DNA of 64,000 nucleotides from a phage. A model generated the notes under the pieces. The model did no database searches. It was not told where the DNA came from and saw nothing but the letters and a program-made list of their open reading frames with translations. The stretch lies in sequence record PZ445487.1; one strand, written 5' to 3'. Position numbers and translations under genes: made by a program. Every line of letters begins with the position of its first letter. The first letter of the stretch is position 1. Positions 2,977 through 64,000 of the stretch are shown in pieces.

Positions 2977-3208
2977 TTATGCCTGTACAGGTTGTGGAAA
3001 TTCGTTTAGTGCTCGAAAATCTTGTGCTGAACGTCATACACCTGAATTAGAGCCATGTTCTGAATGTGGCGGTGAAATAAAAATGATTATTGGAGCACCA
3101 AAGATCGTATCTGGTGTTCGTGGTCCTCAGTCCGCGCCTGATGGCTTCAAAGACGTTTTGCGTCATATTAAGAAGCAATCAGGGAAGGGGAATACAATCG
3201 ATGTCTGA
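2963..3208 (+). CDS. FmdB-like zinc-ribbon protein
   Basis: MPFYDYACTGCG...CSECGG two CxxC pairs; GGAGG RBS upstream of internal ATG of track ORF 2867-3208. Confidence 0.45.
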   Translation: MPFYDYACTGCGNSFSARKSCAERHTPELEPCSECGGEIKMIIGAPKIVSGVRGPQSAPDGFKDVLRHIKKQSGKGNTIDV

Positions 3209-3443
3209 TCAACAAATAGCACAAGTGCTCACACCAGATTCTTTTTCCGAATTGGTGTTGATGAGAGCAAGCCAACGCAAGGAATCAATCCTTGAAACGA
3301 TGGCCAGTGTTTGTGAAGAGTATGACATCGAAGAAGCAAAGGTCAAAAAATTGATCACGCCTCCTCTTCTGTCAAGGCTAACAGCTGAATGTTCTGATGC
3401 TCGGTTGTTGAAGGGTGAATTGAAATCTAAAAAACTCATTTAA
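3201..3443 (+). CDS. hypothetical protein
   Basis: track ORF 3090-3443 trimmed to ATG (MSDQQIAQ) overlapping upstream stop ATGTCTGA. Confidence 0.4.
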   Translation: MSDQQIAQVLTPDSFSELVLMRASQRKESILETMASVCEEYDIEEAKVKKLITPPLLSRLTAECSDARLLKGELKSKKLI

Positions 3444-8869: not shown

Positions 8870-9532
8870 ATGTCTTATTCGCTCAAAGGGCTGTTGAAGC
8901 GCCCTGTGCATTTGTTTGTCAAACCACCTGCTGTAGAAAGGGAATATTCGGCACGAGGAGAGTTGTATTACATTAAAGGCTCCAATGGTAGTGGTAAGTC
9001 TACTGTGCCTTCTTATTTGGCGGAGAATGATCCTCAGGCGTATGTCGTAACCCACAACAGTAAGATCATGCTCACGGTTTGTCCATCTTATAATATTGTC
9101 TGTGTCGGTAAATATGACAAGTCTAAGTCCAAAGGGGTTGATTCTCTGAAGGATACTGAGCAGATGTTGTTCGCGTTGTCTATTGCTGACCAACCAGAAT
9201 ACCTGAAATATGATGTGATTTTCGAAGGCATCATTCCGTCTACATTATTGAGTTCTTGGATTCCCCGCCTGACACGCCCACCACGTGAATTGGTCGTCCT
9301 CTTTATGGATACCCCTCTTGAAACCTGTATTGCCCGTGTTAAATCGCGTAACGGTGGCGCAGACTTCAATGAAAGTCTGGTGGTCGAGAAGTGGGAGAGA
9401 GTTCATGATCACCGTCAACGGCATAAAGGCTTGTTCCCTACCGTTCCCGCAGGTATGATGAAGTCCGATGGCCTGACTGTAGAGCAGGCTGTTTTTGCGT
9501 TTCTCAATCGTGATTTTGGGAGTATTTATTGA
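8870..9532 (+). CDS. P-loop NTPase/kinase-like protein
   Basis: Walker A GSNGSGKST; start at ATG with GGAG RBS (aa5 of track ORF, whose first codon is TTG). Confidence 0.5.
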   Translation: MSYSLKGLLKRPVHLFVKPPAVEREYSARGELYYIKGSNGSGKSTVPSYLAENDPQAYVVTHNSKIMLTVCPSYNIVCVGKYDKSKSKGVDSLKDTEQMLFALSIADQPEYLKYDVIFEGIIPSTLLSSWIPRLTRPPRELVVLFMDTPLETCIARVKSRNGGADFNESLVVEKWERVHDHRQRHKGLFPTVPAGMMKSDGLTVEQAVFAFLNRDFGSIY

Positions 9533-10578
9533 TGGAAATCAAAGCAATTAACAACAACGACATGCTGAAACAGGCTGTCTTGGCTATCCGTGAGCACGGG
9601 ATTGAATCTGACCCTGGTAACGCGGAGATCAACACAGACGGCACTCGTTTTATTGATGGCGTGACGATCACCGTCTCTGACATCCGCGACCGTTGGCTGT
9701 CTGTTGAAGGACGCAACTCATCGGCTATTGCTGCCATCGGCGAGACCTTCTGGGTTCTGTCTGGGCGCGATGATGTGCGCTTCTTGTCCCGTGTCCTCCC
9801 TCGCGCCGCCAACTTCTCTGATAATGGCCATACATGGCGAGCCGCTTATGGTCCGCGTCTGTACGCCCATGGCCAGCTGGATAGCGTTATCAACCGCCTA
9901 CGCAAGAACCCAAATACTCGTCAAGCGTACCTCACCATCTATGATCCGGCTCTAGATTCGGATGCTGGTCTGGCGAAGTTCAGCGAGAGCGGCGAAGCAA
10001 AGACTAAGGACATGGTGTGTAACCTGGCTCTGTTGTTCGCCATCGTTGAAGGTCGTCTGAACCTGACGGTCATCAACCGCTCACAGGATGTTCTGTGGGG
10101 GATGAGTTCAATCAACTTCATTGAGTTCTCTATTCTTCAGGAAGTGATTGCTCAGGTGTTAGATGTTGATGTCGGTCAGTACAAGCTATTCTCTAACAAT
10201 CTTCATTACTACAACAATGAAGTCAGCCAGAAGCAGCTTGGCAAGATCACCAAAGACACAAAAGTCACTGGTGGTTTCATCAACTCCATGATCTACTTCA
10301 CGAACGTGACCAACCAGAACCATATCCGCAATCTGTTCACTGGTGTGCTTCATCACTGTGATATCGGCAGCCCGTGGGAAACTGTTGTCGCTCACCTGAA
10401 GGAGTACGGCGCGGATCGCGGCCTGATCGTGCAGATGGCGTACTGCCTGTACTGCAAACTGAACGACAAGCTCATCAACATGAACCTGATTCAGGATCAT
10501 GGTTTGAACATCGCGCTCGCCCATTCTCCGATTGACCGCAAGATCGTTGATCCCAAGTTCTTGGAAGGTGCAGTATGA
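9532..10578 (+). CDS. thymidylate synthase superfamily protein (candidate pyrimidine hydroxymethylase)
   Basis: MVCNLALLFAIVEGRLNLTVINRSQDVLWGMSSINFIEFSILQEVIA aligns to TS catalytic-Cys..QRS.D..LG.PFNI region; 348 aa, longer than TS or T4 gp42. Confidence 0.6.
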   Translation: MEIKAINNNDMLKQAVLAIREHGIESDPGNAEINTDGTRFIDGVTITVSDIRDRWLSVEGRNSSAIAAIGETFWVLSGRDDVRFLSRVLPRAANFSDNGHTWRAAYGPRLYAHGQLDSVINRLRKNPNTRQAYLTIYDPALDSDAGLAKFSESGEAKTKDMVCNLALLFAIVEGRLNLTVINRSQDVLWGMSSINFIEFSILQEVIAQVLDVDVGQYKLFSNNLHYYNNEVSQKQLGKITKDTKVTGGFINSMIYFTNVTNQNHIRNLFTGVLHHCDIGSPWETVVAHLKEYGADRGLIVQMAYCLYCKLNDKLINMNLIQDHGLNIALAHSPIDRKIVDPKFLEGAV

Positions 10579-17159: not shown

Positions 17160-17359
17160 TGAAACGGGAAATCTTGGATGTTTACTACCCTGGATCTTGT
17201 TGTCCAGGCCATGACAAGTACCCAGCGGACACATACAAAAATCGCCGCTCTAAATCAAAACGTTCAGACGGTATTAAAAAGGAGCATCGACATGTCCGCC
17301 GTGTCAAGCGCCAAAATCTGAAATCTGATTTGCTCTTCATTACCAAGGAGGATTTCTAA
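17159..17359 (+). CDS. small basic protein
   Basis: 66-aa ORF with AAGAGGAAA RBS. Confidence 0.35.
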   Translation: MKREILDVYYPGSCCPGHDKYPADTYKNRRSKSKRSDGIKKEHRHVRRVKRQNLKSDLLFITKEDF

Positions 17360-17571
17360 TGGAATGTTCATGCGGAGGGCAAGGCACAAGTGCATACTTG
17401 CCATTTAACACCGTGAAGGAAGCCGAAGAAGCCGGATATGCCGTGGATAAGGCTCCCTGTGTAATTGCCACCAAGGATTGTCCGTGCTGTAAGAGGCACT
17501 CTCAGGACGTGCATTACTCACCAAACGCACGTTCAGATAAAGTCAATCTTCTTTCACTGATGAGTAAATGA
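17359..17571 (+). CDS. small Cys-rich protein
   Basis: 70-aa ORF with CSCGG...CPCC cysteines. Confidence 0.35.
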   Translation: MECSCGGQGTSAYLPFNTVKEAEEAGYAVDKAPCVIATKDCPCCKRHSQDVHYSPNARSDKVNLLSLMSK

Positions 17572-30007: not shown

Positions 30008-30670
30008 CTATGATAACTCATGGCGATGTCGAACACAGGCAGGGCAATCACAATTCTTTTTCAAAATTGGCAATTCACACCATGTCATTAAGTCATGTAT
30101 TGGGGACATGTGATGATAGAACCAAGATTTCTTGAGACTAATCAATGGATATAAAATTTCAATAGATCTTTCCCCGTCTCTGGTCATCATGTTGTATCCT
30201 TCAATAACTTTATTAAAGGCGGGTATCCAGTGTATTGCGTCATCGCCGTTAACATATGCCAAGATATACGTGGGTGGCAAGCCACTGCCTTTAAATTGCG
30301 TGTTTAATAACCATATCGGGGCTTGTGCTAAACAAGCGCGAAAACCACCGTTCGGGACGTTGATGCTACTGATAGGTTCTTGATGATGTGTCCAACGATA
30401 CATGAGAAGTGGGGCATTTTTATTAATCCAGTTGTATATTTTATTCCTCGCCCAATTTTCGCGTTTAGATTTAAATTTATTATTTTCGAGGTGGCAATAC
30501 ACAGTATGAACTGAATATCCTTTCGATAGCAACCAAATCAACATGTATGTGCTATCCACCCCACCAGACCAGAACAACGTCACTTCTTGATTATTCTGCG
30601 GCAATGGAGCATCCCCTTGAAGAACACGGTATACAAAATCACAATCAGATATTGAGACAACAATTTCCAT
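30008..30670 (-). CDS. QueC-like PP-loop ATPase
   Basis: PP-loop LFWSGGVDS (SGGxDS); C-terminal CDCPACVRH cysteine cluster as in the QueC zinc site; 220 aa. Confidence 0.55.
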   Translation of the reverse strand: MEIVVSISDCDFVYRVLQGDAPLPQNNQEVTLFWSGGVDSTYMLIWLLSKGYSVHTVYCHLENNKFKSKRENWARNKIYNWINKNAPLLMYRWTHHQEPISSINVPNGGFRACLAQAPIWLLNTQFKGSGLPPTYILAYVNGDDAIHWIPAFNKVIEGYNMMTRDGERSIEILYPLISLKKSWFYHHMSPIHDLMTWCELPILKKNCDCPACVRHRHELS

Positions 30671-49012: not shown

Positions 49013-50122
49013 TTAAAACAAACGTTTATAAGTTCGACCATTGTACTGCATGCGGCCTAATATGAAAACTGCGGTAAAAGGGATACATCCAAACAGCACG
49101 ACGATAATCACTTCCCAAGTTTTAAGATCTCGCCATTTCAGATATTCCATTTCCTTCATCTCAACTCGGTTGTATCCCTTACTGATATTGACCGCAACTT
49201 CTTGGAACACGGATATGCCCATTGGTTTCCCAGTCAATGAAAGTCCGTTACGAGAATGGAGTTCCATGTTGTTCATGCCGTCGGCAAATGACGTAGACTT
49301 ACCCCAATTAATTTTCATATCCTTTGAAATATCGGTGACTACAATAACATCGTTCTTTTTACCGCCAGACCATGCATATAGAAGTCCCTGAAAATATTCA
49401 ACAGGCTGGCCAGAAGTCACAACCCAAACGATATTAACCTGACGTGAAGCACCTAATGTTTTCAGAGTATTGTTCAGATAATCATTCCAGTAATCAACAG
49501 GAATGTCCATCCCTGACATATTCAGAACACGAGTTACTCGGTAATAATCATACACCCTCGGATATGAAGGGATATGCTCTTTGAACTTCTCGGCGAATTT
49601 CTGGTCAGATTTAGAGAATAATGAATCTTTGTTGCCCAGCACATAATTCATATATGAATGTTCACGTGCCGCAGGTTCCCCGATTTTAACTTGTGCCCAA
49701 CGCGGAGGCTCTGTAGTACCCTGACGATCAATACGGTCAATGCTCAGATCACCGACGGTTGTTAATACGTCCCAATCAACGTCATAAGAGTGCTCATAGC
49801 ATGTGCTGCAATGACGCGTTTGTGTACAAGATCGGTTATTTCCTGAACCTGTACAAGATGTTGTGTAATAACACATACATTCATAAGAATGTTCACAACC
49901 CACCTTATTCCGTTGCTTATCAGTTACATATCCATTCAGGATTTCCACGTCCCCAGAACTACCAAGGGAGAAAGCAGCATATAATCCCGACTGGATAAGG
50001 CAAGACAATACGATAACAATGGCCGTGGCGATCAAAGTCTCCTTTGGCTCATGAGTCTTGCGGTGATATATCACAAACAAGATGGCCAAAATTACAGGAA
50101 CCACAAACAGAAGGTAAATCAT
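49013..50122 (-). CDS. Cys-rich membrane protein (TM helices at both ends)
   Basis: 369 aa; N- and C-terminal hydrophobic helices; cysteine-rich segment CEHSYECMCYYTTSCTGSGNNRSCTQTRHCSTC. Confidence 0.5.
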   Translation of the reverse strand: MIYLLFVVPVILAILFVIYHRKTHEPKETLIATAIVIVLSCLIQSGLYAAFSLGSSGDVEILNGYVTDKQRNKVGCEHSYECMCYYTTSCTGSGNNRSCTQTRHCSTCYEHSYDVDWDVLTTVGDLSIDRIDRQGTTEPPRWAQVKIGEPAAREHSYMNYVLGNKDSLFSKSDQKFAEKFKEHIPSYPRVYDYYRVTRVLNMSGMDIPVDYWNDYLNNTLKTLGASRQVNIVWVVTSGQPVEYFQGLLYAWSGGKKNDVIVVTDISKDMKINWGKSTSFADGMNNMELHSRNGLSLTGKPMGISVFQEVAVNISKGYNRVEMKEMEYLKWRDLKTWEVIIVVLFGCIPFTAVFILGRMQYNGRTYKRLF

Positions 50123-51202: not shown

Positions 51203-52444
51203 TCAGCGTTTCAAGAGTGTCATGAGGTTCACACTTTTAGAAGGATACACAGTACCATTTCGGCTCATGGTGTCCAATTTACCAACTGACAAACAAACCT
51301 CAGACGGTTCCCAACGTGTACCCTGCTGTAAATGCCAGATATGTAGAGGAACACCCGTCTCAAAGAACACGGGCATCTTCCACTTCTGGACGCCTGGAAC
51401 GTGCCCTGCAGGAGCCTTCTCACATAACAGGGTATCTGGTAGCCAGAGTGAACGGGCTTCCCAGAGAGGTGCACAGGAGTATTCAGGCCAAATACGTTCC
51501 ATATAATCGATCTCGTCCCATGTACGCTCGGCGTCCCACCCGATGTAACGGGTATTCTTCAGTCGGAAGAATTTCTTCAACCAACAAGCACCGGAGGTCT
51601 CAAAGTTCAGACGATTGATAAACGTGATGTGGCCAAACTCTTCAACGCATTCCTGAAACGCTTTCTCAAGGTCGGTTTCGAGTATATCACATTCTTCGTC
51701 TGTAATAGGACAACCGTTAATCTTTTTCTTCCCGTGCTTGGTCACCCAATCATCACGGTTGGATAAGAATGCCGCGCCGTTACGATTGGATTCGCTACCA
51801 TCACGGTCACGCAACATGAAACCAGGGACGTCTATATCCCATATGTTACCGAAGACCATGTTCAGGGCTTCCAGGAAGTTCCATGCGCTCAGGCGACCGA
51901 AGTATTTCCATGACATCGCCGTATTCCACAGTTCGGTGAATTGGTCTTCCTTGGTAGTGCATTCCAACATCCAACGAAAAGAATCCATTTGGGTTTTACC
52001 ACCCAACCAATCGATATAGGACTGAACGCACGGAATCATCTTCGACTTACGATAACGACAATCTGTATCGAAGCGCATACGATCAAAGTTCAGGTTATAC
52101 CAATCAGAAAATCGCTGAAACTCTTTCGGAGATTGTGGGGGTACAGGAAATTCACTGTAAATTGTCCATGGTCCAATCCCATTATAGCAACAACCCCACA
52201 AAAAGGCCATCCAAATCTTGCGCTCGATCTTCTCGAGCTGTGTGATGCCTTCTGTAACCTCGATGGCATAATCCATCAGACGGACTTGCTGGTTATGCTC
52301 TTCAGTGTAGGATAGCGCCTCCACCCATGCCTTGAGCAGGTACATGCGATTTTCTGGCTTACGATAATCTACTGCCAGATCAATCGGGTATTTCCATTTT
52401 TCAGGGGCTTTATATCCCTGCGGCATTTTAGAAATGTGTATCAT
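51203..52444 (-). CDS. hypothetical protein (candidate DNA base-modification enzyme by context)
   Basis: 413-aa Trp/Cys-rich protein with no recognised family, directly upstream of P-loop kinase and nucleotidase genes. Confidence 0.5.
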   Translation of the reverse strand: MIHISKMPQGYKAPEKWKYPIDLAVDYRKPENRMYLLKAWVEALSYTEEHNQQVRLMDYAIEVTEGITQLEKIERKIWMAFLWGCCYNGIGPWTIYSEFPVPPQSPKEFQRFSDWYNLNFDRMRFDTDCRYRKSKMIPCVQSYIDWLGGKTQMDSFRWMLECTTKEDQFTELWNTAMSWKYFGRLSAWNFLEALNMVFGNIWDIDVPGFMLRDRDGSESNRNGAAFLSNRDDWVTKHGKKKINGCPITDEECDILETDLEKAFQECVEEFGHITFINRLNFETSGACWLKKFFRLKNTRYIGWDAERTWDEIDYMERIWPEYSCAPLWEARSLWLPDTLLCEKAPAGHVPGVQKWKMPVFFETGVPLHIWHLQQGTRWEPSEVCLSVGKLDTMSRNGTVYPSKSVNLMTLLKR

Positions 52445-53200: not shown

Positions 53201-54106
53201 CTAACCCTTACTCAACAGGCCGAGAAGGGATACAGAGGACTTTGTTACCTCTCCCTTGGCGCTCGCCTTGGTTTTAGATTTGGTCGCCTTCTCAGGGACT
53301 CGATGCGCTAGAGGATCATCCCCACCGACTTCACGCGTCATTGGGTCAGTTTCACAGAATCCGTAGAAATCTTTGATGTCCAGACCCATGGCGTGAAACT
53401 CACCACGCATTTGATGATGAATAGCGTTGCCAATCACCCATAAAGGTGCATCAAACGGCATCATGGCTAATTCGCTATCATTTCCTGTTTTGAATTCTTG
53501 AGTGTTTGTAGGCGATTGACGGTACAACACGTCTTGCCCGCTGTAGTCATTGACCACCACTTCCCAACCCAGCACCAGCATTTCAGTCTTCGACTTCTCA
53601 AACTCCTTGGAGTAAGATTCGTTGCGTGACCAGCCGGAGTCCCCTGCTTCCTTACCAGAGCGACCACGGATGCGTGCATCATACTGATAGCGGTCTGGGT
53701 ATGCAAAATAAAGCAACGCCAGAGATTCAATCGGATAGTTCTTGAACATCCATTCAGGACGCCATTTATCCGATAGCATGAGGGGTTCACCCTCGCACAC
53801 CAAAGTGTAACCCTGAGCCAGCCAGCCTTTGACCAGATCACGGGCGATATCACCCGAGCCTGTGGCGGCGTGGATGGCGTCCATGGAAGTCCAGGAAGCC
53901 AGGCCGGATTTGTTGGACACAGTATACTGGCCAACGAAGATTAACTTCAGCTCTTCGAACTTCAGGCCGAATGGGCGCGTCTTGTCACCAATGGTGTAGG
54001 TGAGTTCAGTAGGCTCCAGCTTAGTTCGGAGCCATTCGATGAACTGGACTACTCTCGTACCCTTGCCCGTGGCCGAGGTGCCTTTCACTACAATTATTTT
54101 AGCCAT
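53201..54106 (-). CDS. P-loop kinase-like protein
   Basis: N-terminal IIVVKGTSATGKGT Walker A-like loop; 301 aa. Confidence 0.45.
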   Translation of the reverse strand: MAKIIVVKGTSATGKGTRVVQFIEWLRTKLEPTELTYTIGDKTRPFGLKFEELKLIFVGQYTVSNKSGLASWTSMDAIHAATGSGDIARDLVKGWLAQGYTLVCEGEPLMLSDKWRPEWMFKNYPIESLALLYFAYPDRYQYDARIRGRSGKEAGDSGWSRNESYSKEFEKSKTEMLVLGWEVVVNDYSGQDVLYRQSPTNTQEFKTGNDSELAMMPFDAPLWVIGNAIHHQMRGEFHAMGLDIKDFYGFCETDPMTREVGGDDPLAHRVPEKATKSKTKASAKGEVTKSSVSLLGLLSKG

Positions 54107-55601: not shown

Positions 55602-58598
55602 TCAACCTTTCTTGCCCATCATGGACAACAGATTAACTCGACGTTTATGAGACCAACCAACCACATCCAAGATAGACTGAATTGGCTCTATAAAGGTCTT
55701 TTCAAACGTGGTGTGGTAATCCACCCATTTATCCAATCCCAATTCTGGAGGAAGGAAGTCAGGGAAGGCTATGCGATCATTCCCCACAGGATTGCCAGGT
55801 TTCAGGTTGATGATTTTAACCTTATCACCGGATTCGATAGGCGGAAGACCGAGATCTTCGTGCTTATCGATCAGCTTGTTGTACATAATACAAGCCTTGG
55901 CAGCAAAGTGCGTACCGCTGATGTAATTCCCGTTCGCGTCTAACCACTTCTCAATATCGCTCACACCAGATGCCTGAGCGATATCATCCACGGTGAGTTC
56001 CATATATTCCTTTTTGTATCCAGCGATTAATTCCTGAACCTCCGCCTCAGTACCGAGCAGGACTTTCTCATAACATTTGACAAGACGCTCACGACACCAT
56101 TCCGGCGTTGTAGATTTACGCGCTTCCAGACCTTTGAATTTGATCTTTGGTTTCTCATACTTGATGCCTTCGCTATCGTATACTGCCATGCAATACATCT
56201 TCTTGGCTCGCCATACAGCAGACGATGCGATGACCTCACGTTCCCAGACCATGCGCTGCTCAAACCCGTTCATGGTATTACACAGCAATTGCGCCCATTC
56301 ACTAGTTTTTGGTTGGTAATTCTCTTTGATCCATTGGTCGATGTTATCAACAAGTTTATGATGATCCTTTTCATCAGGCCATAATTGCTTGACCAGGCGT
56401 TCAATGCAAATATAATTGGAGTCTGTATCACCTGCGATAACAAAATCCTGACCAGTAGTACCACAAAGTTTGTTCAGATAATCATCAGTGTGGCGTTTGT
56501 TCCATTTATTGATCAGCTGGCCGGAAGTGGTAATTGCTTCAGCGATGTTGATGTTGAAGTATTCTTTAAACCAGACGTTAGAAATTGCACCATATCCTGC
56601 GTTCATCAAGATCTTCAGACCTTGTTGTAACGTATCTTGGGCAACTCCCAAATCTTCCCACTTGTGCATGACTTCGGTCAGGTGATCAAGGTCGATATGC
56701 TTGTGTTCTTCATACCATTCAGGATCGTAGAAACGAGACTTCATGGCGGATTCAAGGTGGAAATCACCTTTAGACATTTCCTTACACCAACCAGCCCATT
56801 GCTCATACTTCAGGCCAGTTGCTTTCTCTCCTTTACGGTCAGCGTATATGCCTCGCATAATTTCGGAAAGGAAGGACATCTTCTCATTACTGAAGAACTG
56901 AACGTTCGGGGTAAAAGAAACGTTATAACGGCGTAACGTTTCAAAATGGAATTCACCCAGCGCGACCAATTCATCAACAACTTGTATGCGTTCATCAATA
57001 GCACGCTGCAGCTTGTCGTGAAGATTTTTGAGATGACGGCGCTTGTTCATAGGCGTTGTCATATCATTCATCGCTTTGGTCAATTCTTCACACATGGACT
57101 CAATGATATCGCGACGTGTGTGCTTGTCAGAAACGATAGTCTCAGGACCAAGGTTGTATTGCTGTATGATGTGGGGATACAGGGAGTTTAAGTCCTCAGA
57201 GAATACCCAGAAATATATCCCTGGTGCAACCTCCATGACATATGCGCCTTCAAAGTCCGTTGGACCATCATATACACGCTGTATTTTAGGGACAATCCCC
57301 TTTTCATAAAGACGATAGTAACACATCGCCAGCCATGGTGCTACAGTCCCAAGACCGTCTTCATAGTTAGATTTGGTGCGATACGCCAATACGAACATCA
57401 GCTGTATCAAACGCAGCTTTTGTTCTAAACGCCACACGAGTTTGACGTCTTTGATACCATATCGGGTGTGTTTGCAATAATCATTAAAATATAGATCATA
57501 CAATGACTTGCTTTCACTATAATCCAACTTCTTCTCACCGAGTTCACAATAAGCGATCCAATCCAGTGAGTATTTTTCGCGGGTCGTGTACGTGTGTTTC
57601 TTGTAAACTTGCATGTAGTCCATCATAGGACAACCGACGAATTGATAAGAAGTCACGTCGCCTTTACGGTCTTTGATGAAACGTTTCTTGAGTTTGCTCC
57701 AAGGACTGAGACGCTCTGCCTGAGTTTCACCGAGAACCTGCGTAATACGTTCAACCAAGTACGGGCTATCAAACGTTTCGATGTTCCAGCCAGTCCAACC
57801 ATCAAATTGACGTTCAGACCAATAATCTAAGAAAGCGCGAAGAAGTTCTTGTTCAGTAGTGTATTCTTTGTATTCAACCTCAAGACCACCTATCTCTTCA
57901 TCATTTGGATCATATTTGAATTTATGGCGATCCTTAGAGCACGGCATACCCCAGACATAGAACTTGTTGGTGTTCATGTCTTGAAGCTGGATGAGCGTAA
58001 TAGGGAAGGCGGCATTCATGTTCTGTGTGATCTTCCCATTACTATCAATGATAGGGAACTGGTCAGTCACGTTGTTGGAAATAAAGGAACCTGGGAAATG
58101 CTCTCGAACGAAATCATGGTTGGCCAACACTTGCTTATGAAATCGGCGAACACGCGCCTCGCTCCCCTTAAACGTGTGGGATTCAATCGTCGCGTGAGGA
58201 AATGGACCTTTAGTCATTTCTCCATCGCGCCACCCAGCCGAGAAAACTTCGATATCCACGTTGGCGATGTGAATATTTGAGTAATCGGGGGTAATCATCC
58301 CAGGAAAACTATGCGCTATGAATTGATATGCATAATCCGTTTGCCCGTAAACGGCAGCGCCTTCGACCTCCTTATATTCCTCCAGATAGTTGTCGGCGTC
58401 ACGCATTGACGCAAATTTTTTAGACACCAACGGTTCATTGAGGAGGCCAATCTTTTCAACTTTGGAATAATCGGCTGTGGGTAAATACAAGGTGGGTTCG
58501 AATTTCTTACGCAACATACGGCGATTGCCGTTGTCGTCTGCAATACGAATCAGAAGGTCGTTACCCTGTCGGGCAACGTTCGTATAGAAAACAGTCAT
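55602..58598 (-). CDS. 43: B-family DNA polymerase (T4 gp43-like)
   Basis: N-terminus MTVFYTNVARQGNDLLIR parallels T4 gp43; exo motif VDIEVF, pol motifs DLNSLYPHII and IAGDTDSNY; start trimmed to ATG with GGAG RBS. Confidence 0.9.
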   Translation of the reverse strand: MTVFYTNVARQGNDLLIRIADDNGNRRMLRKKFEPTLYLPTADYSKVEKIGLLNEPLVSKKFASMRDADNYLEEYKEVEGAAVYGQTDYAYQFIAHSFPGMITPDYSNIHIANVDIEVFSAGWRDGEMTKGPFPHATIESHTFKGSEARVRRFHKQVLANHDFVREHFPGSFISNNVTDQFPIIDSNGKITQNMNAAFPITLIQLQDMNTNKFYVWGMPCSKDRHKFKYDPNDEEIGGLEVEYKEYTTEQELLRAFLDYWSERQFDGWTGWNIETFDSPYLVERITQVLGETQAERLSPWSKLKKRFIKDRKGDVTSYQFVGCPMMDYMQVYKKHTYTTREKYSLDWIAYCELGEKKLDYSESKSLYDLYFNDYCKHTRYGIKDVKLVWRLEQKLRLIQLMFVLAYRTKSNYEDGLGTVAPWLAMCYYRLYEKGIVPKIQRVYDGPTDFEGAYVMEVAPGIYFWVFSEDLNSLYPHIIQQYNLGPETIVSDKHTRRDIIESMCEELTKAMNDMTTPMNKRRHLKNLHDKLQRAIDERIQVVDELVALGEFHFETLRRYNVSFTPNVQFFSNEKMSFLSEIMRGIYADRKGEKATGLKYEQWAGWCKEMSKGDFHLESAMKSRFYDPEWYEEHKHIDLDHLTEVMHKWEDLGVAQDTLQQGLKILMNAGYGAISNVWFKEYFNINIAEAITTSGQLINKWNKRHTDDYLNKLCGTTGQDFVIAGDTDSNYICIERLVKQLWPDEKDHHKLVDNIDQWIKENYQPKTSEWAQLLCNTMNGFEQRMVWEREVIASSAVWRAKKMYCMAVYDSEGIKYEKPKIKFKGLEARKSTTPEWCRERLVKCYEKVLLGTEAEVQELIAGYKKEYMELTVDDIAQASGVSDIEKWLDANGNYISGTHFAAKACIMYNKLIDKHEDLGLPPIESGDKVKIINLKPGNPVGNDRIAFPDFLPPELGLDKWVDYHTTFEKTFIEPIQSILDVVGWSHKRRVNLLSMMGKKG

Positions 58599-61268: not shown

Positions 61269-61290
61269 AACAAAGGGGCATTAAGCCCCT
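61264..61290. terminator. bidirectional terminator at convergent gene junction
   Basis: AAAGGGGCATTAAGCCCCTTTGTTTATTT between plus gene end 61268 and minus gene end 61295. Confidence 0.55.
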
Positions 61291-61294
61291 TTGT

Positions 61295-61788: not shown

Positions 61789-62238
61789 TTAGGCTTCTCT
61801 GGTCGCCAACCCTGGCTTAAACACCACCATTTCCTCAACGTTATTGGCACTCATAGAGGCTATAGAATCGAACCCTTTGTTGATAAGTTCTTTCACATTA
61901 TCATGTATCTTACCAGGCTTTATCCCCAACTCTCGCATTTTATTTTCCCACACCGAAACATTGTTGGAATCTATTACAAGAGTCTTCTTGGCCTTGACAC
62001 GAAATGCCATGACAATAGGTTCACCAGATTGACGATAGCGCACGGCATTTTCTGCGTAGATCTGTGCCTTTTCTGGATCCCCCGTCAGGTAAAACCCAGC
62101 ACCCATCGTACCAGAGTCAGTCTGGCCAAATTTTTCAAAATCAAAGATATCGAATTCAACATTAGACCCATGATACAAAACGATATTCGTAAAATCAGGT
62201 AACGTTGATTCGCGATAAAATTCTAGAAAGGTTTTCAT
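61789..62238 (-). CDS. hypothetical protein, possible ADP-ribosyltransferase-fold (H-G-S motif)
   Basis: IVLYHGSNVEF followed by GAGFYLTGD and EEMVVF resembles KptA/Tpt1 and PARP-like H-G-[ST] / Y / E elements; tentative. Confidence 0.35.
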   Translation of the reverse strand: MKTFLEFYRESTLPDFTNIVLYHGSNVEFDIFDFEKFGQTDSGTMGAGFYLTGDPEKAQIYAENAVRYRQSGEPIVMAFRVKAKKTLVIDSNNVSVWENKMRELGIKPGKIHDNVKELINKGFDSIASMSANNVEEMVVFKPGLATREA

Positions 62239-62277: not shown

Positions 62278-63471
62278 TTAGCTGGGGACAAACTCATTCA
62301 CAGGAACATGTTCAGGTATTGATAATTCAGGACAAGCAGCTTTCATCGCTTCCAGATATGGCTTGCTACCCACGATCCAAAACAATGAGTTCTCATTAAG
62401 CAATTCTGGTTTGTGTTCCTGTATCCATGTCATCACCTTCCCTTCATAACGAGGATGCAACTCAATATCTCCCCACTGGTAATCCATGAGGTCGTTGTAA
62501 CGAACCCAATTAGTGGTATGAAGATCCCAATGGTGTACCTCAAAACGAGGAAGCACGATATCCGGCTCGTTCTTTGGCCTGATACCACTTAGGAGGCCAG
62601 CCAGCGAAACGCTCTTAGAGGCATGCTGGAGATCCTTCTTACCATACACATAGTCTGGGTTGTCGTGATAGCGACGAGTGAAATCAGTTATGTGAGGGAG
62701 GTTTGCTTGCTTACCGATAATGCGCAAACGACTTTCAATGAAATCTAATCGGTTTGGGCCAATCCCGATCAGATAAACATTCTTCAGATTTGGTTTCGGA
62801 TGCATCGCCAAACCTGTCAGGATACTGGTGCATGAATTACAAGAACCAGCAGGAATGATCAGATCAGTGATATGGTCTGGGATATTGGCAACCTGCTCGC
62901 CACCCAGCATATGGAATCCAGCAATGCGTTCTGGTGAATGAACGGTATGATCCAATGTAATGCCATATTCCAGATAATACGCCTTTGGATTTAATTGTTC
63001 AATGAGTTTCTTACAGCGCGGCTGAATGGTGCTATTGTAACCAGATCCAACAAAGTTGAACTCACTACCAAACCATGCTGACATTGAAACCATATCATGA
63101 TTCATGCATGTGGTTGGTTTAGTGGCACCCAGCACAGTGGTTGTCTTACCGCCGAAATGCCGTGAGACTGCCGTCGCCATAGGGGACTGCGGACTACCAA
63201 CGACAGTACCATGGATAAGATCTGGGGATCCTCCAGCTTTCAGATGCTCCATCATGAGCCAGATGGCCTGACGGAGTTTGCTGCCATTGATCCCCTGCTT
63301 GCCATTCATATAGCATGACAAAGGCGCGAAGTAATCTTCACGTTTGAACCAAACCTGCTGATTGGTTTCTGGATTGGCAATGAGTTCGCACGGGGTGTGT
63401 TTGTAGAGATAATCTTCCCAATGAACCAGATCGCGGTTGAGGGAAAGAGTATCGAAGATGGTTTTGTTCAT
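62278..63471 (-). CDS. PLP-dependent enzyme, fold type II (ACC deaminase/D-cysteine desulfhydrase-like)
   Basis: GINGSKLRQA candidate PLP-lysine motif; Gly/Ser-rich loop IIPAGSCNSCTS; 397 aa. Confidence 0.5.
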   Translation of the reverse strand: MNKTIFDTLSLNRDLVHWEDYLYKHTPCELIANPETNQQVWFKREDYFAPLSCYMNGKQGINGSKLRQAIWLMMEHLKAGGSPDLIHGTVVGSPQSPMATAVSRHFGGKTTTVLGATKPTTCMNHDMVSMSAWFGSEFNFVGSGYNSTIQPRCKKLIEQLNPKAYYLEYGITLDHTVHSPERIAGFHMLGGEQVANIPDHITDLIIPAGSCNSCTSILTGLAMHPKPNLKNVYLIGIGPNRLDFIESRLRIIGKQANLPHITDFTRRYHDNPDYVYGKKDLQHASKSVSLAGLLSGIRPKNEPDIVLPRFEVHHWDLHTTNWVRYNDLMDYQWGDIELHPRYEGKVMTWIQEHKPELLNENSLFWIVGSKPYLEAMKAACPELSIPEHVPVNEFVPS

Positions 63472-63540: not shown

Positions 63541-63990
63541 TTACTTAGTCAGGAAGTCCAGCAGACGGCGGAAGAACGATTTGCGATCTACTGGTTTCTT
63601 CGATTCCGGTACAGGATATTGAAGGATAGGTGGGAGTTCAGGGTATCCACCAGGGAAACATTTATCCAGATCATTTAAACTACAACTGGCCAGAGGAGTC
63701 GGCTTCAAAGATTTAATTGCCTGATTCAAATCGGAATTATCCACGACACCCACTTCTTCACCGACCGTAACGCATGGTTTGATTAGAACGGATTTCTTAG
63801 ATTGCTCATATTGATGAGCGATATCCAGATATTTCTTGCGCTCTGCGTAGAAATCAACATTCTTTACTTTACGGCGGCGAGCAGTAGAACTCTCTTCACC
63901 ATAGAAATCATAACCATTTTTGAATAACCAATTCACGGCTTGCTCAAATGAATTGAATACCATATACAGGCCGCGCCGCCCGTTGACCAT
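63541..63990 (-). CDS. hypothetical protein (5-prime end may extend beyond window)
   Basis: 149-aa ORF running to the window edge. Confidence 0.35.
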   Translation of the reverse strand: MVNGRRGLYMVFNSFEQAVNWLFKNGYDFYGEESSTARRRKVKNVDFYAERKKYLDIAHQYEQSKKSVLIKPCVTVGEEVGVVDNSDLNQAIKSLKPTPLASCSLNDLDKCFPGGYPELPPILQYPVPESKKPVDRKSFFRRLLDFLTK

Positions 63991-64000
63991 ATCGTCTTCG

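What the first reader, a model, noticed from the sequence alone, without database searches (positions are those of the whole stretch)
62278..63471. Fold-type-II PLP-dependent enzyme in a phage replication region
An ACC-deaminase/D-cysteine-desulfhydrase-like PLP enzyme (GSKLR lysine motif, Gly/Ser-rich loop) has no role in canonical phage nucleotide metabolism. In known thymidine hypermodification pathways, PLP enzymes decarboxylate or otherwise remodel the amino-acid moiety appended to 5-hmdU in DNA. Its presence near the kinase/nucleotidase module makes it a candidate tailoring enzyme.
Basis: partly seen in the sequence, partly recalled or inferred. Interest (0 to 1): 0.65.

Follow-up and report, generated by a model that had tools for sequence, protein, structure and literature searches.

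The report
Phage DNA-base decarboxylase with clamp motif
This gene is phage CBA120's copy of an already characterised vitamin-B6 enzyme that removes CO2 from a serine attached to thymine in phage DNA; what appears unreported is that it and its partner enzymes carry the short peptide that the phage DNA polymerase has at its tail, where T4-type polymerases bind the sliding clamp.

Summary

One feature appears unreported in the papers I could search. The only disordered loop of the enzyme (SKSVSLAGLLSG) carries the same peptide as the C-terminal tail of the phage DNA polymerase, which also occurs at a terminus of all four other hypermodification proteins. The peptide changes flavour together in all these proteins across lineages: NLLxMM, KRLW, and T4-like SLExFF. 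It matches the T4 gp43/gp55 clamp-binding motif SLDFLF, and it is absent from lineages without a T4-type replisome. This suggests the pathway rides on the sliding clamp. That is inferred, not shown.

The parts
62278..63471 (-). PLP-dependent O-serinyl-thymidine (DNA) decarboxylase, ortholog of ViI gp226 (Cba120 orf228)
   Evidence: ORF. It is 94% identical to ViI YP_004327553. PHROG 3650 scores 803 bits. The biochemistry of the ortholog is in PMC8989533.
63268..63294 (-). GINGSKLRQ motif (residues 60-68). K65 (codon 63277-63279) is the predicted Schiff-base lysine.
   Evidence: K65 is invariant in 55 homologs. It aligns with the GGNK lysine of ACC deaminase, with ViI K92 and with M6 gp52 K36. 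Coordinates were checked.
62824..62853 (-). PAGSCNSCTS (residues 207-216), the Gly/Ser-rich loop predicted to bind the PLP phosphate
   Evidence: G209 and N212 are invariant; S210, S213 and S216 are at least 90% conserved. The loop aligns on TGSTT of yeast ACC deaminase. Coordinates were checked.
62437..62457 (-). HPRYEGK (residues 339-345), counterpart of the DPVYEGK motif of ACC deaminases
   Evidence: H339, P340, Y342, E343 and K345 are invariant. The motif is aligned to P-V-Y-E-G-K of 1rqx and 1f2d; that second aligned stretch is weak on its own.
62581..62625 (-). HASKSVSLAGLLSGI (residues 283-297) in the only disordered loop of the model: a putative internal sliding-clamp-binding peptide (inferred)
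   Evidence: pLDDT is below 50 at residues 277-289, followed by a short helix at 290-294. The peptide is shared with the polymerase tail and the other pathway enzymes. It co-varies across lineages.
53201..54106 (-). 5-hmdU DNA kinase 2 (ortholog of ViI gp243). Its C-terminal tail SSVSLLGLLSKG* lies at 53204-53239.
   Evidence: Pfam HMUD2 scores 497 bits. It is 86% identical to ViI gp243. The tail is shown.
51203..52444 (-). Serine:DNA transferase (AADT / aGPT-Pplase2, ortholog of ViI gp247). Its tail KSVNLMTLLKR* lies at 51206-51238.
   Evidence: Pfam ADDT scores 195 bits. It is 86% identical to ViI gp247. The tail is shown.
8870..9532 (+). 5-hmdU DNA kinase 1 (ortholog of ViI gp67). Its N-terminus reads MSYSLKGLLKR.
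   Evidence: Pfam HMUDK_HMUD1 scores 376 bits. It is 94% identical to ViI gp67. The motif is shown.
9529..10578 (+). Thymidylate-synthase-like protein, the presumed dUMP hydroxymethylase that supplies 5-hmdU
   Evidence: Pfam Thymidylat_synt scores 59 bits. It sits beside the kinase as in ViI. The hydroxymethylase role is inferred from PMC8989533.
55602..58598 (-). Family-B DNA polymerase. Its C-terminal tail RRVNLLSMMGKKG* (55605-55643) carries the same peptide.
   Evidence: Annotation. The tail is shown. The T4 gp43 tail ends SLDFLFG* and is a clamp-binding epitope according to PMC2988020.
54422..55204 (-).
   Evidence: Pfam NT5C scores 32.7 bits. Its role in the pathway has not been established.
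17359..17571 (+). orf058, a 70-aa Cys-rich protein ending KVNLLSLMSK*: another carrier of the peptide, function unknown
   Evidence: Its Vibrio homolog p078 (pairwise E=3e-7) ends KPKTKRLW*, which is that phage's flavour of the peptide.
61272..61292 (.). Bidirectional terminator-like hairpin closing the co-directional block orf227-PLP-orf229-orf230

Best explanation
The gene encodes the CBA120 ortholog of ViI gp226, a fold-type II PLP enzyme that performs the last step of 5-(2-aminoethoxy)methyl-2'-deoxyuridine (5-NeOmdU) synthesis on polymerised phage DNA.

Pathway (shown for ViI by others, inferred here by orthology):
1. 5-hmdU is incorporated during replication.
2. The 5-hmdU DNA kinases phosphorylate it to 5-PmdU.
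3. The serine:DNA transferase replaces the phosphate with the side-chain oxygen of L-serine, giving O-serinyl-thymidine.
4. The free alpha-amine of that serine forms an external aldimine with PLP, displacing K65, and the enzyme removes the carboxylate as CO2. This leaves the aminoethoxy group.

Inferred addition: a disordered surface loop, longer than in the lineages that lack the motif (residues about 270-310), carries a short peptide (SVSLAGLL). This may tether the enzyme, like the DNA polymerase and the four other pathway proteins, to the phage gp45-type sliding clamp. I rate this addition separately, at about 0.55-0.6.
For: Orthology:
- 94% identity over 394 residues and conserved gene order with ViI gp226.
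- PHROG 3650 scores 803 bits.

Biochemistry of the ortholog and the base in CBA120 DNA: PMC8989533 and PMC5889632.

Fold and active site:
-.
- K65 corresponds to ViI K92 and to M6 gp52 K36.

Pathway partners in the same window:
- HMUD2, 497 bits, and ADDT, 195 bits.
- HMUDK_HMUD1, 376 bits, and a ThyA-like gene.

Independent gene-fusion evidence:
- P0131: kinase + PLP domain + ADDT.
- P0121, P0128 and P0175: PLP domain + ADDT.
- P0155 and P0208: kinase + PLP domain.

The family is small and specialised: 356 clusters out of 1.84 billion representatives.
Against: - The CBA120 protein itself has never been assayed.
- The Pfam PALP score is below the curated cut-off, and phmmer against PDB sequences finds nothing with the single sequence.
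- Decarboxylation is not a typical reaction of this fold (own knowledge), so the chemistry could not have been predicted from the fold alone.
- Many GenBank records call the orthologs 'threonine ammonia lyase' or 'threonine dehydratase'.
Confidence: 0.93

Rival explanations
1. It is a small-molecule enzyme of the ACC-deaminase / D-cysteine-desulfhydrase / threonine-ammonia-lyase type. It would act on free amino acids, for example remodelling host amino-acid pools, as many database annotations suggest.
For: The nearest solved structures are ACC deaminase homologue 1j0a, D-cysteine desulfhydrase 4d97 and ACC deaminase 1rqx. The SNQ-like SPQ and YEGK motifs are retained. GenBank annotations read 'putative threonine ammonia lyase' or 'threonine dehydratase'.
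Against: The 94%-identical ViI enzyme acts on DNA-borne O-SerT. NCBIfam gives no hit to any curated deaminase or desulfhydrase family. Identity to those enzymes is only 14-19%. Homologs are fused to DNA-acting kinases and amino acid:DNA transferases.
Confidence: 0.03
2. In CBA120 the enzyme tailors the DNA-borne amino acid by a different PLP reaction than in ViI, such as transamination, beta-elimination or racemisation.
For: Fold-type II enzymes typically catalyse beta-replacement or elimination (own knowledge). There are 24 substitutions relative to ViI gp226.
Against: CBA120 DNA contains a nucleoside with the same mass (301 Da) and retention time as ViI 5-NeOmdU. Every residue that is invariant in the family alignment is present in the CBA120 protein, which is its reference sequence.
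Confidence: 0.03
3. This rival concerns the inferred add-on only. The peptide shared by the PLP loop, the polymerase tail and the other enzymes is not a sliding-clamp handle. It would bind another hub (SSB, helicase loader, the host beta clamp or a scaffold), or act as a degron or packaging signal, or be a compositional coincidence.
For: In CBA120 itself the gp33 and gp55 homologs, whose T4 counterparts bind the clamp, do not carry the [SN]L..[LM][LM] peptide. The regexes were derived after seeing the sequences. No binding data exist. The once-claimed binding of T4 alpha-glucosyltransferase to gp45 was not reproduced.
Against: - The same five orthologous proteins carry a C-terminal tail peptide in CBA120 and in Vibrio phage 1.255.O, although the peptide itself differs completely. 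Exactly 5 of 717 Vibrio ORFs end in LW.
- In the Vibrio phage the gp33 homolog shares the peptide (..NKTRKLF*). In T4-like lineages the gp55 homologs share it.
- The T4-like flavour SLExFF matches the real T4 gp43 and gp55 tails SLDFLF/Y, which are clamp-binding epitopes.
- Enrichment in ten T4-like loci: ADDT 6/10, Tet_JBP 5/7 and gp55 3/4, against 2/203 other ORFs.
- The peptide is absent from M6 and from 31 loci that have no clamp gene.
Confidence: 0.4

Closest known systems
Salmonella phage ViI gp226 (YP_004327553), PLP-dependent decarboxylase of the 5-NeOmdU pathway (Lee et al., PMC5889632 and PMC8989533)
   Same: It is 94% identical over the full length and sits in the same genomic position. 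It has the same lysine (K92 in ViI, K65 here). The same partner genes are present, and the same modified base is found in virion DNA.
   Different: The ViI annotation carries 27 extra N-terminal residues, which CBA120 cannot encode because a stop codon lies 8 codons upstream. There are 24 substitutions, clustered next to the loop peptide. The CBA120 protein has not been assayed.
Pseudomonas phage M6 gp52 (YP_001294560), PLP-dependent decarboxylase of the 5-NedU pathway
   Same: It has the same fold class and an equivalent lysine, K36 (hhalign E=1.5e-4). It performs the same chemistry on a DNA-borne amino acid.
   Different: It is only a remote homolog; BLASTP is not significant. It is 278 aa long and has no long loop or shared peptide. 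It acts on C-alpha-glycinyl-thymidine after a radical-SAM isomerisation. M6 has no gp45-type clamp annotated, and its enzymes share no tail.
ACC deaminase / D-cysteine desulfhydrase group of fold-type II PLP enzymes (PDB 1j0a, 1rqx, 1f2d, 4d8t)
   Different: Identity is only 14-19%, and NCBIfam gives no family hit. The substrate is a modified base in polymeric DNA and the reaction is decarboxylation. About 40 extra residues lie between the Gly/Ser loop and the YEGK motif.
T4 sliding-clamp-binding motif at the C-termini of gp43, gp55 and gp33 (PMC2988020; RB69 clamp-peptide complex PDB 1b8h)
   Same: It is a short S/N-L-x-x-hydrophobic-hydrophobic peptide placed after a variable, flexible linker. 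It is shared between the DNA polymerase and otherwise unrelated proteins of the same phage. According to the review it still works when placed internally.
   Different: Here the carriers are DNA-base-modifying enzymes (kinases, amino acid:DNA transferase, Tet_JBP, PLP decarboxylase). In the PLP enzyme the peptide is internal. In Kuttervirus the peptide is followed by basic rather than acidic residues. Binding has not been tested.
DNMT1-PCNA (PIP box) coupling of maintenance DNA methylation to replication in eukaryotes (own knowledge)
   Same: In concept it is the same: a post-replicative DNA-modifying enzyme recruited to new DNA through a clamp-binding peptide.
   Different: The proteins, clamp and motif are unrelated, so this is an analogy only.

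Membership tests
Fold-type II PLP-dependent enzymes (Pfam PALP PF00291, tryptophan-synthase-beta-like) | Pfam PALP match above the curated gathering score | tested here: not met
   The score is 31.4 bits against a cut-off of 35. E=1.6e-7, and the match covers residues 24-249 only.
Fold-type II PLP-dependent enzymes (Pfam PALP PF00291, tryptophan-synthase-beta-like) | Two-domain alpha/beta fold of the tryptophan-synthase-beta type | tested here: met
Fold-type II PLP-dependent enzymes (Pfam PALP PF00291, tryptophan-synthase-beta-like) | Conserved Schiff-base lysine in the N-terminal motif | tested here: met
   K65 is invariant in 55 of 55 homologs and aligns on the GGNK lysine of ACC deaminase.
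Fold-type II PLP-dependent enzymes (Pfam PALP PF00291, tryptophan-synthase-beta-like) | Gly/Ser/Thr-rich phosphate-binding loop | tested here: met
   In PAGSCNSCTS (207-216), G209 and N212 are invariant. The loop aligns on TGSTT of 1f2d.
Fold-type II PLP-dependent enzymes (Pfam PALP PF00291, tryptophan-synthase-beta-like) | The protein binds PLP | not testable with these tools
   This was shown only for the 94%-identical ViI gp226, which was yellow with absorbance at 410-425 nm (PMC8989533).
ACC deaminase / D-cysteine desulfhydrase family | Sequence membership in a curated family model | tested here: not met
   NCBIfam gives no hit at E<=1. phmmer of the single sequence against PDB sequences finds nothing. 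Only the 55-sequence profile reaches these enzymes, at E=3e-6.
ACC deaminase / D-cysteine desulfhydrase family | Conserved Y-E-G-K motif (Tyr/Glu next to the cofactor) and S-N-Q loop | tested here: inconclusive
   HPxYEGK is invariant, and SPQ replaces SNQ. The YEGK sub-alignment is weak on its own.
ACC deaminase / D-cysteine desulfhydrase family | Deaminase or desulfhydrase activity on free amino acids | not testable with these tools
   The activity published for the ortholog is decarboxylation of a DNA-borne amino acid.
ViI gp226-type DNA amino-acid decarboxylases (PHROG 3650) | Full-length orthology and synteny with ViI gp226 | tested here: met
   94% identity over 394 residues, with the same neighbours in both genomes. 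PHROG 3650 scores 803 bits over the full length.
ViI gp226-type DNA amino-acid decarboxylases (PHROG 3650) | Co-occurrence with a 5-hmdU DNA kinase and an amino acid:DNA transferase | tested here: met
   HMUD2, ADDT and HMUDK_HMUD1 are all in the window. HMUDK_hel lies elsewhere in the genome. Fusion proteins join these domains in other phages.
ViI gp226-type DNA amino-acid decarboxylases (PHROG 3650) | The phage DNA contains the decarboxylated product 5-NeOmdU | not testable with these tools
   This comes from the literature: CBA120 DNA has the 301-Da nucleoside (PMC5889632; PMC8989533).
ViI gp226-type DNA amino-acid decarboxylases (PHROG 3650) | Decarboxylase activity of this very protein on O-SerT DNA | not testable with these tools
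   It has not been assayed for CBA120 orf228.
Proteins carrying a T4-type sliding-clamp-binding motif | Short S/N-L-x-x-hydrophobic-hydrophobic peptide in a terminal or disordered segment | tested here: met
   The peptide SVSLAGLL lies at residues 288-294, beside the model's only segment with pLDDT below 50. The linker sequences diverge while the peptide is conserved between CBA120 and ViI.
Proteins carrying a T4-type sliding-clamp-binding motif | The same peptide at the C-terminus of the phage's own replicative polymerase | tested here: met
   The polymerase tail is RRVNLLSMMGKKG*. The same holds in MAM1 and in the Vibrio phage, each with its own flavour.
Proteins carrying a T4-type sliding-clamp-binding motif | The same peptide on the gp33 and gp55 late-transcription proteins of the same phage | tested here: inconclusive
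   Met in Vibrio phage 1.255.O (gp33 ..KTRKLF*, gp55 ..ARLF..) and in T4-like lineages (gp55 3 of 4). Not met in CBA120 itself, where gp33 ends ..KSKKLI* and gp55 has no such tail.
Proteins carrying a T4-type sliding-clamp-binding motif | Co-variation of the peptide among partner proteins across lineages, and absence where no phage clamp exists | tested here: met
   Three flavours co-vary. M6 and 31 loci without the motif have no clamp gene, against 6 of 17 motif-bearing loci.
Proteins carrying a T4-type sliding-clamp-binding motif | Physical binding to the gp45-type clamp | not testable with these tools
   The clamp (orf163; PDB 1b77 and 1czd homolog, E about 1e-12) lies outside the window.

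The most novel reading that the evidence does not exclude
The thymidine-hypermodification machinery of T4-like and ViI-like phages is physically coupled to the replisome. The two 5-hmdU DNA kinases, the kinase-associated helical protein (gp160 class), the amino acid:DNA transferase, Tet/JBP thymine dioxygenases in other lineages, and the PLP decarboxylase (through an internal loop) each carry the phage-specific sliding-clamp-binding peptide that the DNA polymerase has at its C-terminus. On this reading the gp45-type clamp left on new DNA acts as a toolbelt that delivers the whole pathway to freshly replicated 5-hmdU DNA. I found no report of this in the searchable literature.
Probability: 0.55. 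Interest if true: 0.72.

Novelty: already known. Interest (0 to 1): 0.4.

Why it matters
The flagged function matters little as a discovery. It confirms by sequence, fold and context that CBA120 orf228 is the published 5-NeOmdU decarboxylase. The gene is still annotated 'hypothetical protein' in RefSeq and 'threonine ammonia lyase' in many related genomes, and that annotation should be corrected.

The shared-peptide observation could matter more. It gives a concrete, testable mechanism for how a multi-step post-replicative DNA modification pathway finds its substrate quickly enough to protect new DNA from host nucleases. It could bear on why only about 40% of thymidines are modified. It offers a bacterial-virus analogue of DNMT1-PCNA. 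It also provides a simple sequence rule (matching the polymerase tail) for finding further clamp clients, such as orf058 and orf227, and for predicting which modification enzymes depend on the phage replisome. That last point is relevant when moving these pathways into other hosts.

Tried and rejected
- **Single-sequence phmmer against PDB sequences:** only chance hits (Cdc25, integrase). Superseded by the profile and fold searches.
- **NCBIfam:** no hit, so membership in a curated ACC-deaminase family is rejected.
- **BLASTP against M6 gp52:** not significant. Only the profile comparison links the two.
- **T4-type positive control in CBA120:** the gp33 and gp55 tails do not carry the Kuttervirus peptide. 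This weakens the clamp reading for CBA120 and is left unexplained. The control does work in the Vibrio and T4-like lineages.
- **T4 alpha- and beta-glucosyltransferases:** no SLDFLF-like tail. This agrees with the preprint that failed to reproduce gp45 binding, so they are no precedent.
- **Sigma-70 promoter scan around the gene:** no more sites than in shuffled sequence, and no promoter assigned. No T4-type late promoter box (TATAAATA) is evident in the 69-nt upstream spacer.
- **Structure prediction of a clamp-peptide complex:** The clamp gene is outside the window, and chimeric or multimer inputs are not accepted.
- **HMUDK1 N-terminal peptide:** present in Kuttervirus, but the Vibrio ortholog is unclear. 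I do not count it as co-varying.
Full report
**Identity of the window and the ORF.** The ORF at 62278..63471 on the minus strand (397 aa, ATG start) exists as described. An AGGAG ribosome-binding site lies 7 nt upstream of the start. Megablast shows the region is 100% identical to Escherichia phage Cba120 (Kuttervirus, Ackermannviridae). After reassembling the genome from fetched pieces, the whole window equals the reverse complement of record 139606-157304 joined to 1-46301, with zero mismatches. The ORF is orf228 / CBA120_gp177, annotated 'hypothetical protein'. Orthologs elsewhere are annotated variously as 'threonine ammonia lyase', 'threonine dehydratase', 'PLP-dependent enzyme' or even 'DNA repair protein'.

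**Is it a fold-type II PLP enzyme?** Yes, although the sequence signal is weak.
- Pfam PALP matches with E=1.6e-7 but scores 31.4 bits, under the 35-bit cut-off, and covers only residues 24-249.
- PHROGs places the protein full-length in phrog_3650, function unknown.
- phmmer against PDB sequences finds nothing, and NCBIfam finds nothing.
- A 55-sequence alignment of homologs, used as a profile, reaches ACC deaminases (1rqx E=3.3e-6; 1f2d) and D-cysteine desulfhydrase (4d8t). The family motif INGSK aligns on the GGNK Schiff-base lysine, SPQ on SNQ, GSCNS on TGSTT, and HPxYEGK on DPVYEGK.
- K65 is invariant. So are K43, R44, D46, S93, P94, Q95, G209, N212, H339, P340, Y342, E343 and K345.
- AlphaFold2 with this alignment gives pLDDT 91.1 and pTM 0.90. 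The only disordered segment is residues 277-289.
- Foldseek puts D-cysteine desulfhydrase and ACC deaminases first, at E down to 4e-11.

**What it does.** ViI-like phages replace about 40% of thymidine with 5-(2-aminoethoxy)methyl-dU. CBA120 DNA was directly shown to contain the same 301-Da nucleoside (PMC5889632). In ViI, five proteins (gp67, gp160, gp226, gp243, gp247) reconstitute the modification. Leaving out gp226 gives a product 44 u heavier. Purified gp226 is yellow (410-425 nm) and converts O-serinyl-thymidine in DNA to the 301-u nucleoside, with loss of one labelled carbon (PMC8989533).

The ViI protein YP_004327553 is the syntenic counterpart of our ORF and is 94% identical over 394 residues. 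Its annotation is 27 residues longer, so the published lysine K92 is our K65.

The second characterised enzyme, M6 gp52, is only remotely related: BLASTP is not significant and hhalign gives E=1.5e-4. Its published K36 nevertheless aligns on K65.

The partner genes are all in the window:
- 5-hmdU DNA kinase 2 at 53201-54106 (Pfam HMUD2 497 bits; 86% identical to gp243).
- Amino acid:DNA transferase at 51203-52444 (ADDT 195 bits; 86% identical to gp247).
- 5-hmdU DNA kinase 1 at 8870-9532 (HMUDK_HMUD1 376 bits; 94% identical to gp67).
- A thymidylate-synthase-like gene next to kinase 1.

The exhaustive representative search finds only 356 clusters in 1.84 billion proteins. Some of them are natural fusions: kinase + PLP domain + ADDT (P0131), PLP domain + ADDT (P0121, P0128, P0175), and kinase + PLP domain (P0155, P0208). 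This links the domains functionally, independently of the literature.

I conclude with about 0.93 confidence that the gene encodes the O-SerT decarboxylase of the 5-NeOmdU pathway.

**An unreported feature: a peptide shared with the polymerase tail.** The disordered loop reads ...HASKSVSLAGLLSGI... (residues 283-297). The same kind of peptide ends:
- kinase 2 (SSVSLLGLLSKG*),
- the transferase (KSVNLMTLLKR*),
- the DNA polymerase (RRVNLLSMMGKKG*),
- a 70-aa Cys-rich protein, orf058 (KVNLLSLMSK*).

It also begins kinase 1 (MSYSLKGLLKR). The gp160-class protein orf156 (Pfam HMUDK_hel 281 bits) ends RSINLLEKMKK*.

Across the 199 annotated CBA120 proteins, the regex [VYIL][SN]L..[LM][LM] hits 7 times, against 1.27 in shuffles. 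Five hits lie within 4 residues of a terminus, against 0.06 expected (maximum 2 in 2000 shuffles). The regex was written after seeing the sequences, so these numbers are inflated. The real tests are the ones below.

Between CBA120 and ViI the linkers before the tails diverge, with gaps, while the peptide stays conserved. This is the classic signature of a short linear motif.

**Co-variation across lineages.**
- *Serratia phage MAM1:* the polymerase (KKRVNLLSMMGKR*), kinase 2 (SSNLLAMLLRNKK*), the transferase (SVNLLSMLGGKK*) and the PLP loop (NTNVMHLLF) keep the same flavour.
- *Vibrio phage 1.255.O:* the PLP enzyme is 51% identical and the clamp 37% identical. The flavour is entirely different yet again shared. 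The polymerase C-fragment ends ..KKARKLW*, kinase 2 ..AKTKRLW*, the transferase ..HKTRKLW*, the gp160-class protein ..VTKRLW*, and the orf058 homolog (pairwise E=3e-7) ..KPKTKRLW*. The PLP loop reads KPKTRRLFGG.
- In that Vibrio genome exactly 5 of 717 ORFs of at least 60 aa end in LW, and they are these five orthologs. Orthology was confirmed by tblastn.
- Relaxing the last residue to W or F adds the gp33-type late-transcription coactivator (..NKTRKLF*). The gp55 homolog ends ..GLARLFAQNKKGEE*.
- In metagenomic T4-like phages the cluster is Tet_JBP-PLP-ADDT-kinase, 3-4 kb from the gp45 clamp and clamp-loader genes. The flavour there is SLExFF. L014 has Tet_JBP ..LSLESFFE*, ADDT ..NSLEGFFV* and PLP loop IDRFFDG. 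L015 has ..ASLEDFFS*..ISLERFFE* and IGNFFGD. The gp55-like proteins end ..IENFIGESDE* and ..IEKFIGEKDDD*.
- A survey of 62 further viral-contig loci plus the three metagenomic ones repeats this. In L082, for example, gp55 has GLELFAEE.., ADDT GLESFYD*, Tet_JBP SLENFF* and the PLP loop SILDFFQ.
- In ten T4-like loci the tail occurs in 6/10 ADDT, 5/7 Tet_JBP and 3/4 gp55 homologs, but in only 2/203 unassigned ORFs.

**Why the sliding clamp is the likely partner.** The real T4 tails are gp43 ..KASLDFLFG* and gp55 ..SPSLDFLYEAND*. The T4 late-transcription review states several relevant points (PMC2988020):
- gp43, gp55 and gp33 share highly similar C-terminal clamp-binding motifs that are interchangeable.
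- These motifs sit after divergent flexible linkers.
- They bind a hydrophobic patch, or the subunit interface, of gp45.
- They still function when made internal in a fusion protein.

CBA120 encodes a gp45 homolog (E about 1e-12 to 1b77, 1b8h and 1czd). The SLExFF flavour is plainly the T4 motif, and the Kuttervirus flavour has the same S/N-L-x-x-hydrophobic-hydrophobic spacing.

Negative controls fit:
- Phage M6 has no annotated clamp and no shared tail.
- 0 of 31 loci without the motif (392 kb) contain a gp45-like clamp, gp55 or T4-type polymerase, against 6 of 17 motif-bearing loci.
- PLP loops in the lineages without the motif are about 20 residues shorter.
- T4 alpha- and beta-glucosyltransferases lack the motif. 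This matches a preprint that could not reproduce their reported gp45 binding.

**Caveats.**
- In CBA120 itself, gp33 ends ..ELKSKKLI* and gp55 has no such tail. Kuttervirus may therefore use two peptide classes, or the shared peptide may bind a different hub.
- The kinase-3 proteins of the T4-like clusters mostly lack the tail.
- The Vibrio kinase 1 N-terminus is unclear.
- No binding experiment exists, and complex prediction was not possible with the tools.

I found no mention of a clamp or replisome link for these enzymes in the pathway papers or in full-text searches. The library does not cover subscription journals, however.

I rate the clamp-tether reading at about 0.55.

**Verdict.** The gene deserves re-annotation as the 5-NeOmdU-pathway PLP decarboxylase. 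The new and testable lead is the polymerase-type peptide shared by the whole hypermodification pathway, including an internal copy in this enzyme.

Noticed in passing
window 61789-62238 (-): orf229 lies directly downstream of the PLP gene in the same transcription block. It matches Pfam ART-PolyVal (ADP-ribosyltransferase in polyvalent proteins, 41.9 bits) and DUF3990, and it is annotated as hypothetical.
   Followed up: no
window 63541-64000 (-), runs off the window end: orf227 lies directly upstream of the PLP gene and ends ...KSFFRRLLDFLTK*. The LLDFL core resembles the T4 clamp-binding peptide SLDFLF. It may be another clamp client of unknown function.
   Followed up: partly
window 17359-17571 (+): orf058 is a 70-aa Cys-rich (zinc-ribbon-like) protein of unknown function that ends with the polymerase-type peptide KVNLLSLMSK*. 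Its homolog in Vibrio phage 1.255.O ends with that phage's flavour, KPKTKRLW*.
   Followed up: partly
window 30008-30670 (-): This ORF corresponds to Cba120 orf028, annotated 'QueC-like queuosine biosynthesis'. It hints at a possible second, 7-deazaguanine-type nucleotide pathway in the same phage.
   Followed up: no
L014 8656-14687; L015 8631-15860: Metagenomic T4-like phages carry a Tet_JBP dioxygenase-PLP-ADDT-Ploopntkinase3 cluster only 3-4 kb from the gp45 clamp and clamp-loader genes. No thymidylate-synthase-like gene is called within 10 kb, so 5-hmU may be made there by oxidising thymine in DNA.
   Followed up: partly
protein P0152 (569 aa, metagenomic): This PLP-decarboxylase homolog is interrupted by an intein splicing domain together with HNH and NUMOD3 endonuclease motifs.
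   Followed up: no
L008 21044-26485 (Vibrio phage 1.255.O): The family-B DNA polymerase is split into three ORFs separated by inserted ORFs. One inserted ORF (p191) ends ...TATRRLF*, the local flavour of the shared peptide.
   Followed up: partly
Cba120 record 88345-88767 (outside the window); T4 L016 6343-6906; L014 15819-16217: The N-termini of the gp62 clamp-loader subunit carry an SLF/PFD-like peptide: Cba120 MAAPSLFDYLG, T4 MSLFKDD and L014 MATSPFDYV. This resembles the clamp-binding motif.
   Followed up: no
Cba120 orf174, orf253 and gp33 (orf084); orf253 = window 49013-50122 (-), gp33 = window 3201-3443 (+): CBA120 has a second tail type, basic residues followed by L and a hydrophobic residue: gp33 ..KSKKLI*, orf174 ..KPKTKRLL* and orf253 ..TYKRLF*. 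It resembles the single flavour used by everything in the Vibrio phage. This suggests two peptide classes in Kuttervirus.
   Followed up: partly
window 61272-61292: A bidirectional terminator-like hairpin lies between the convergent genes orf230 and orf231 and closes the block that contains the PLP gene.
   Followed up: no
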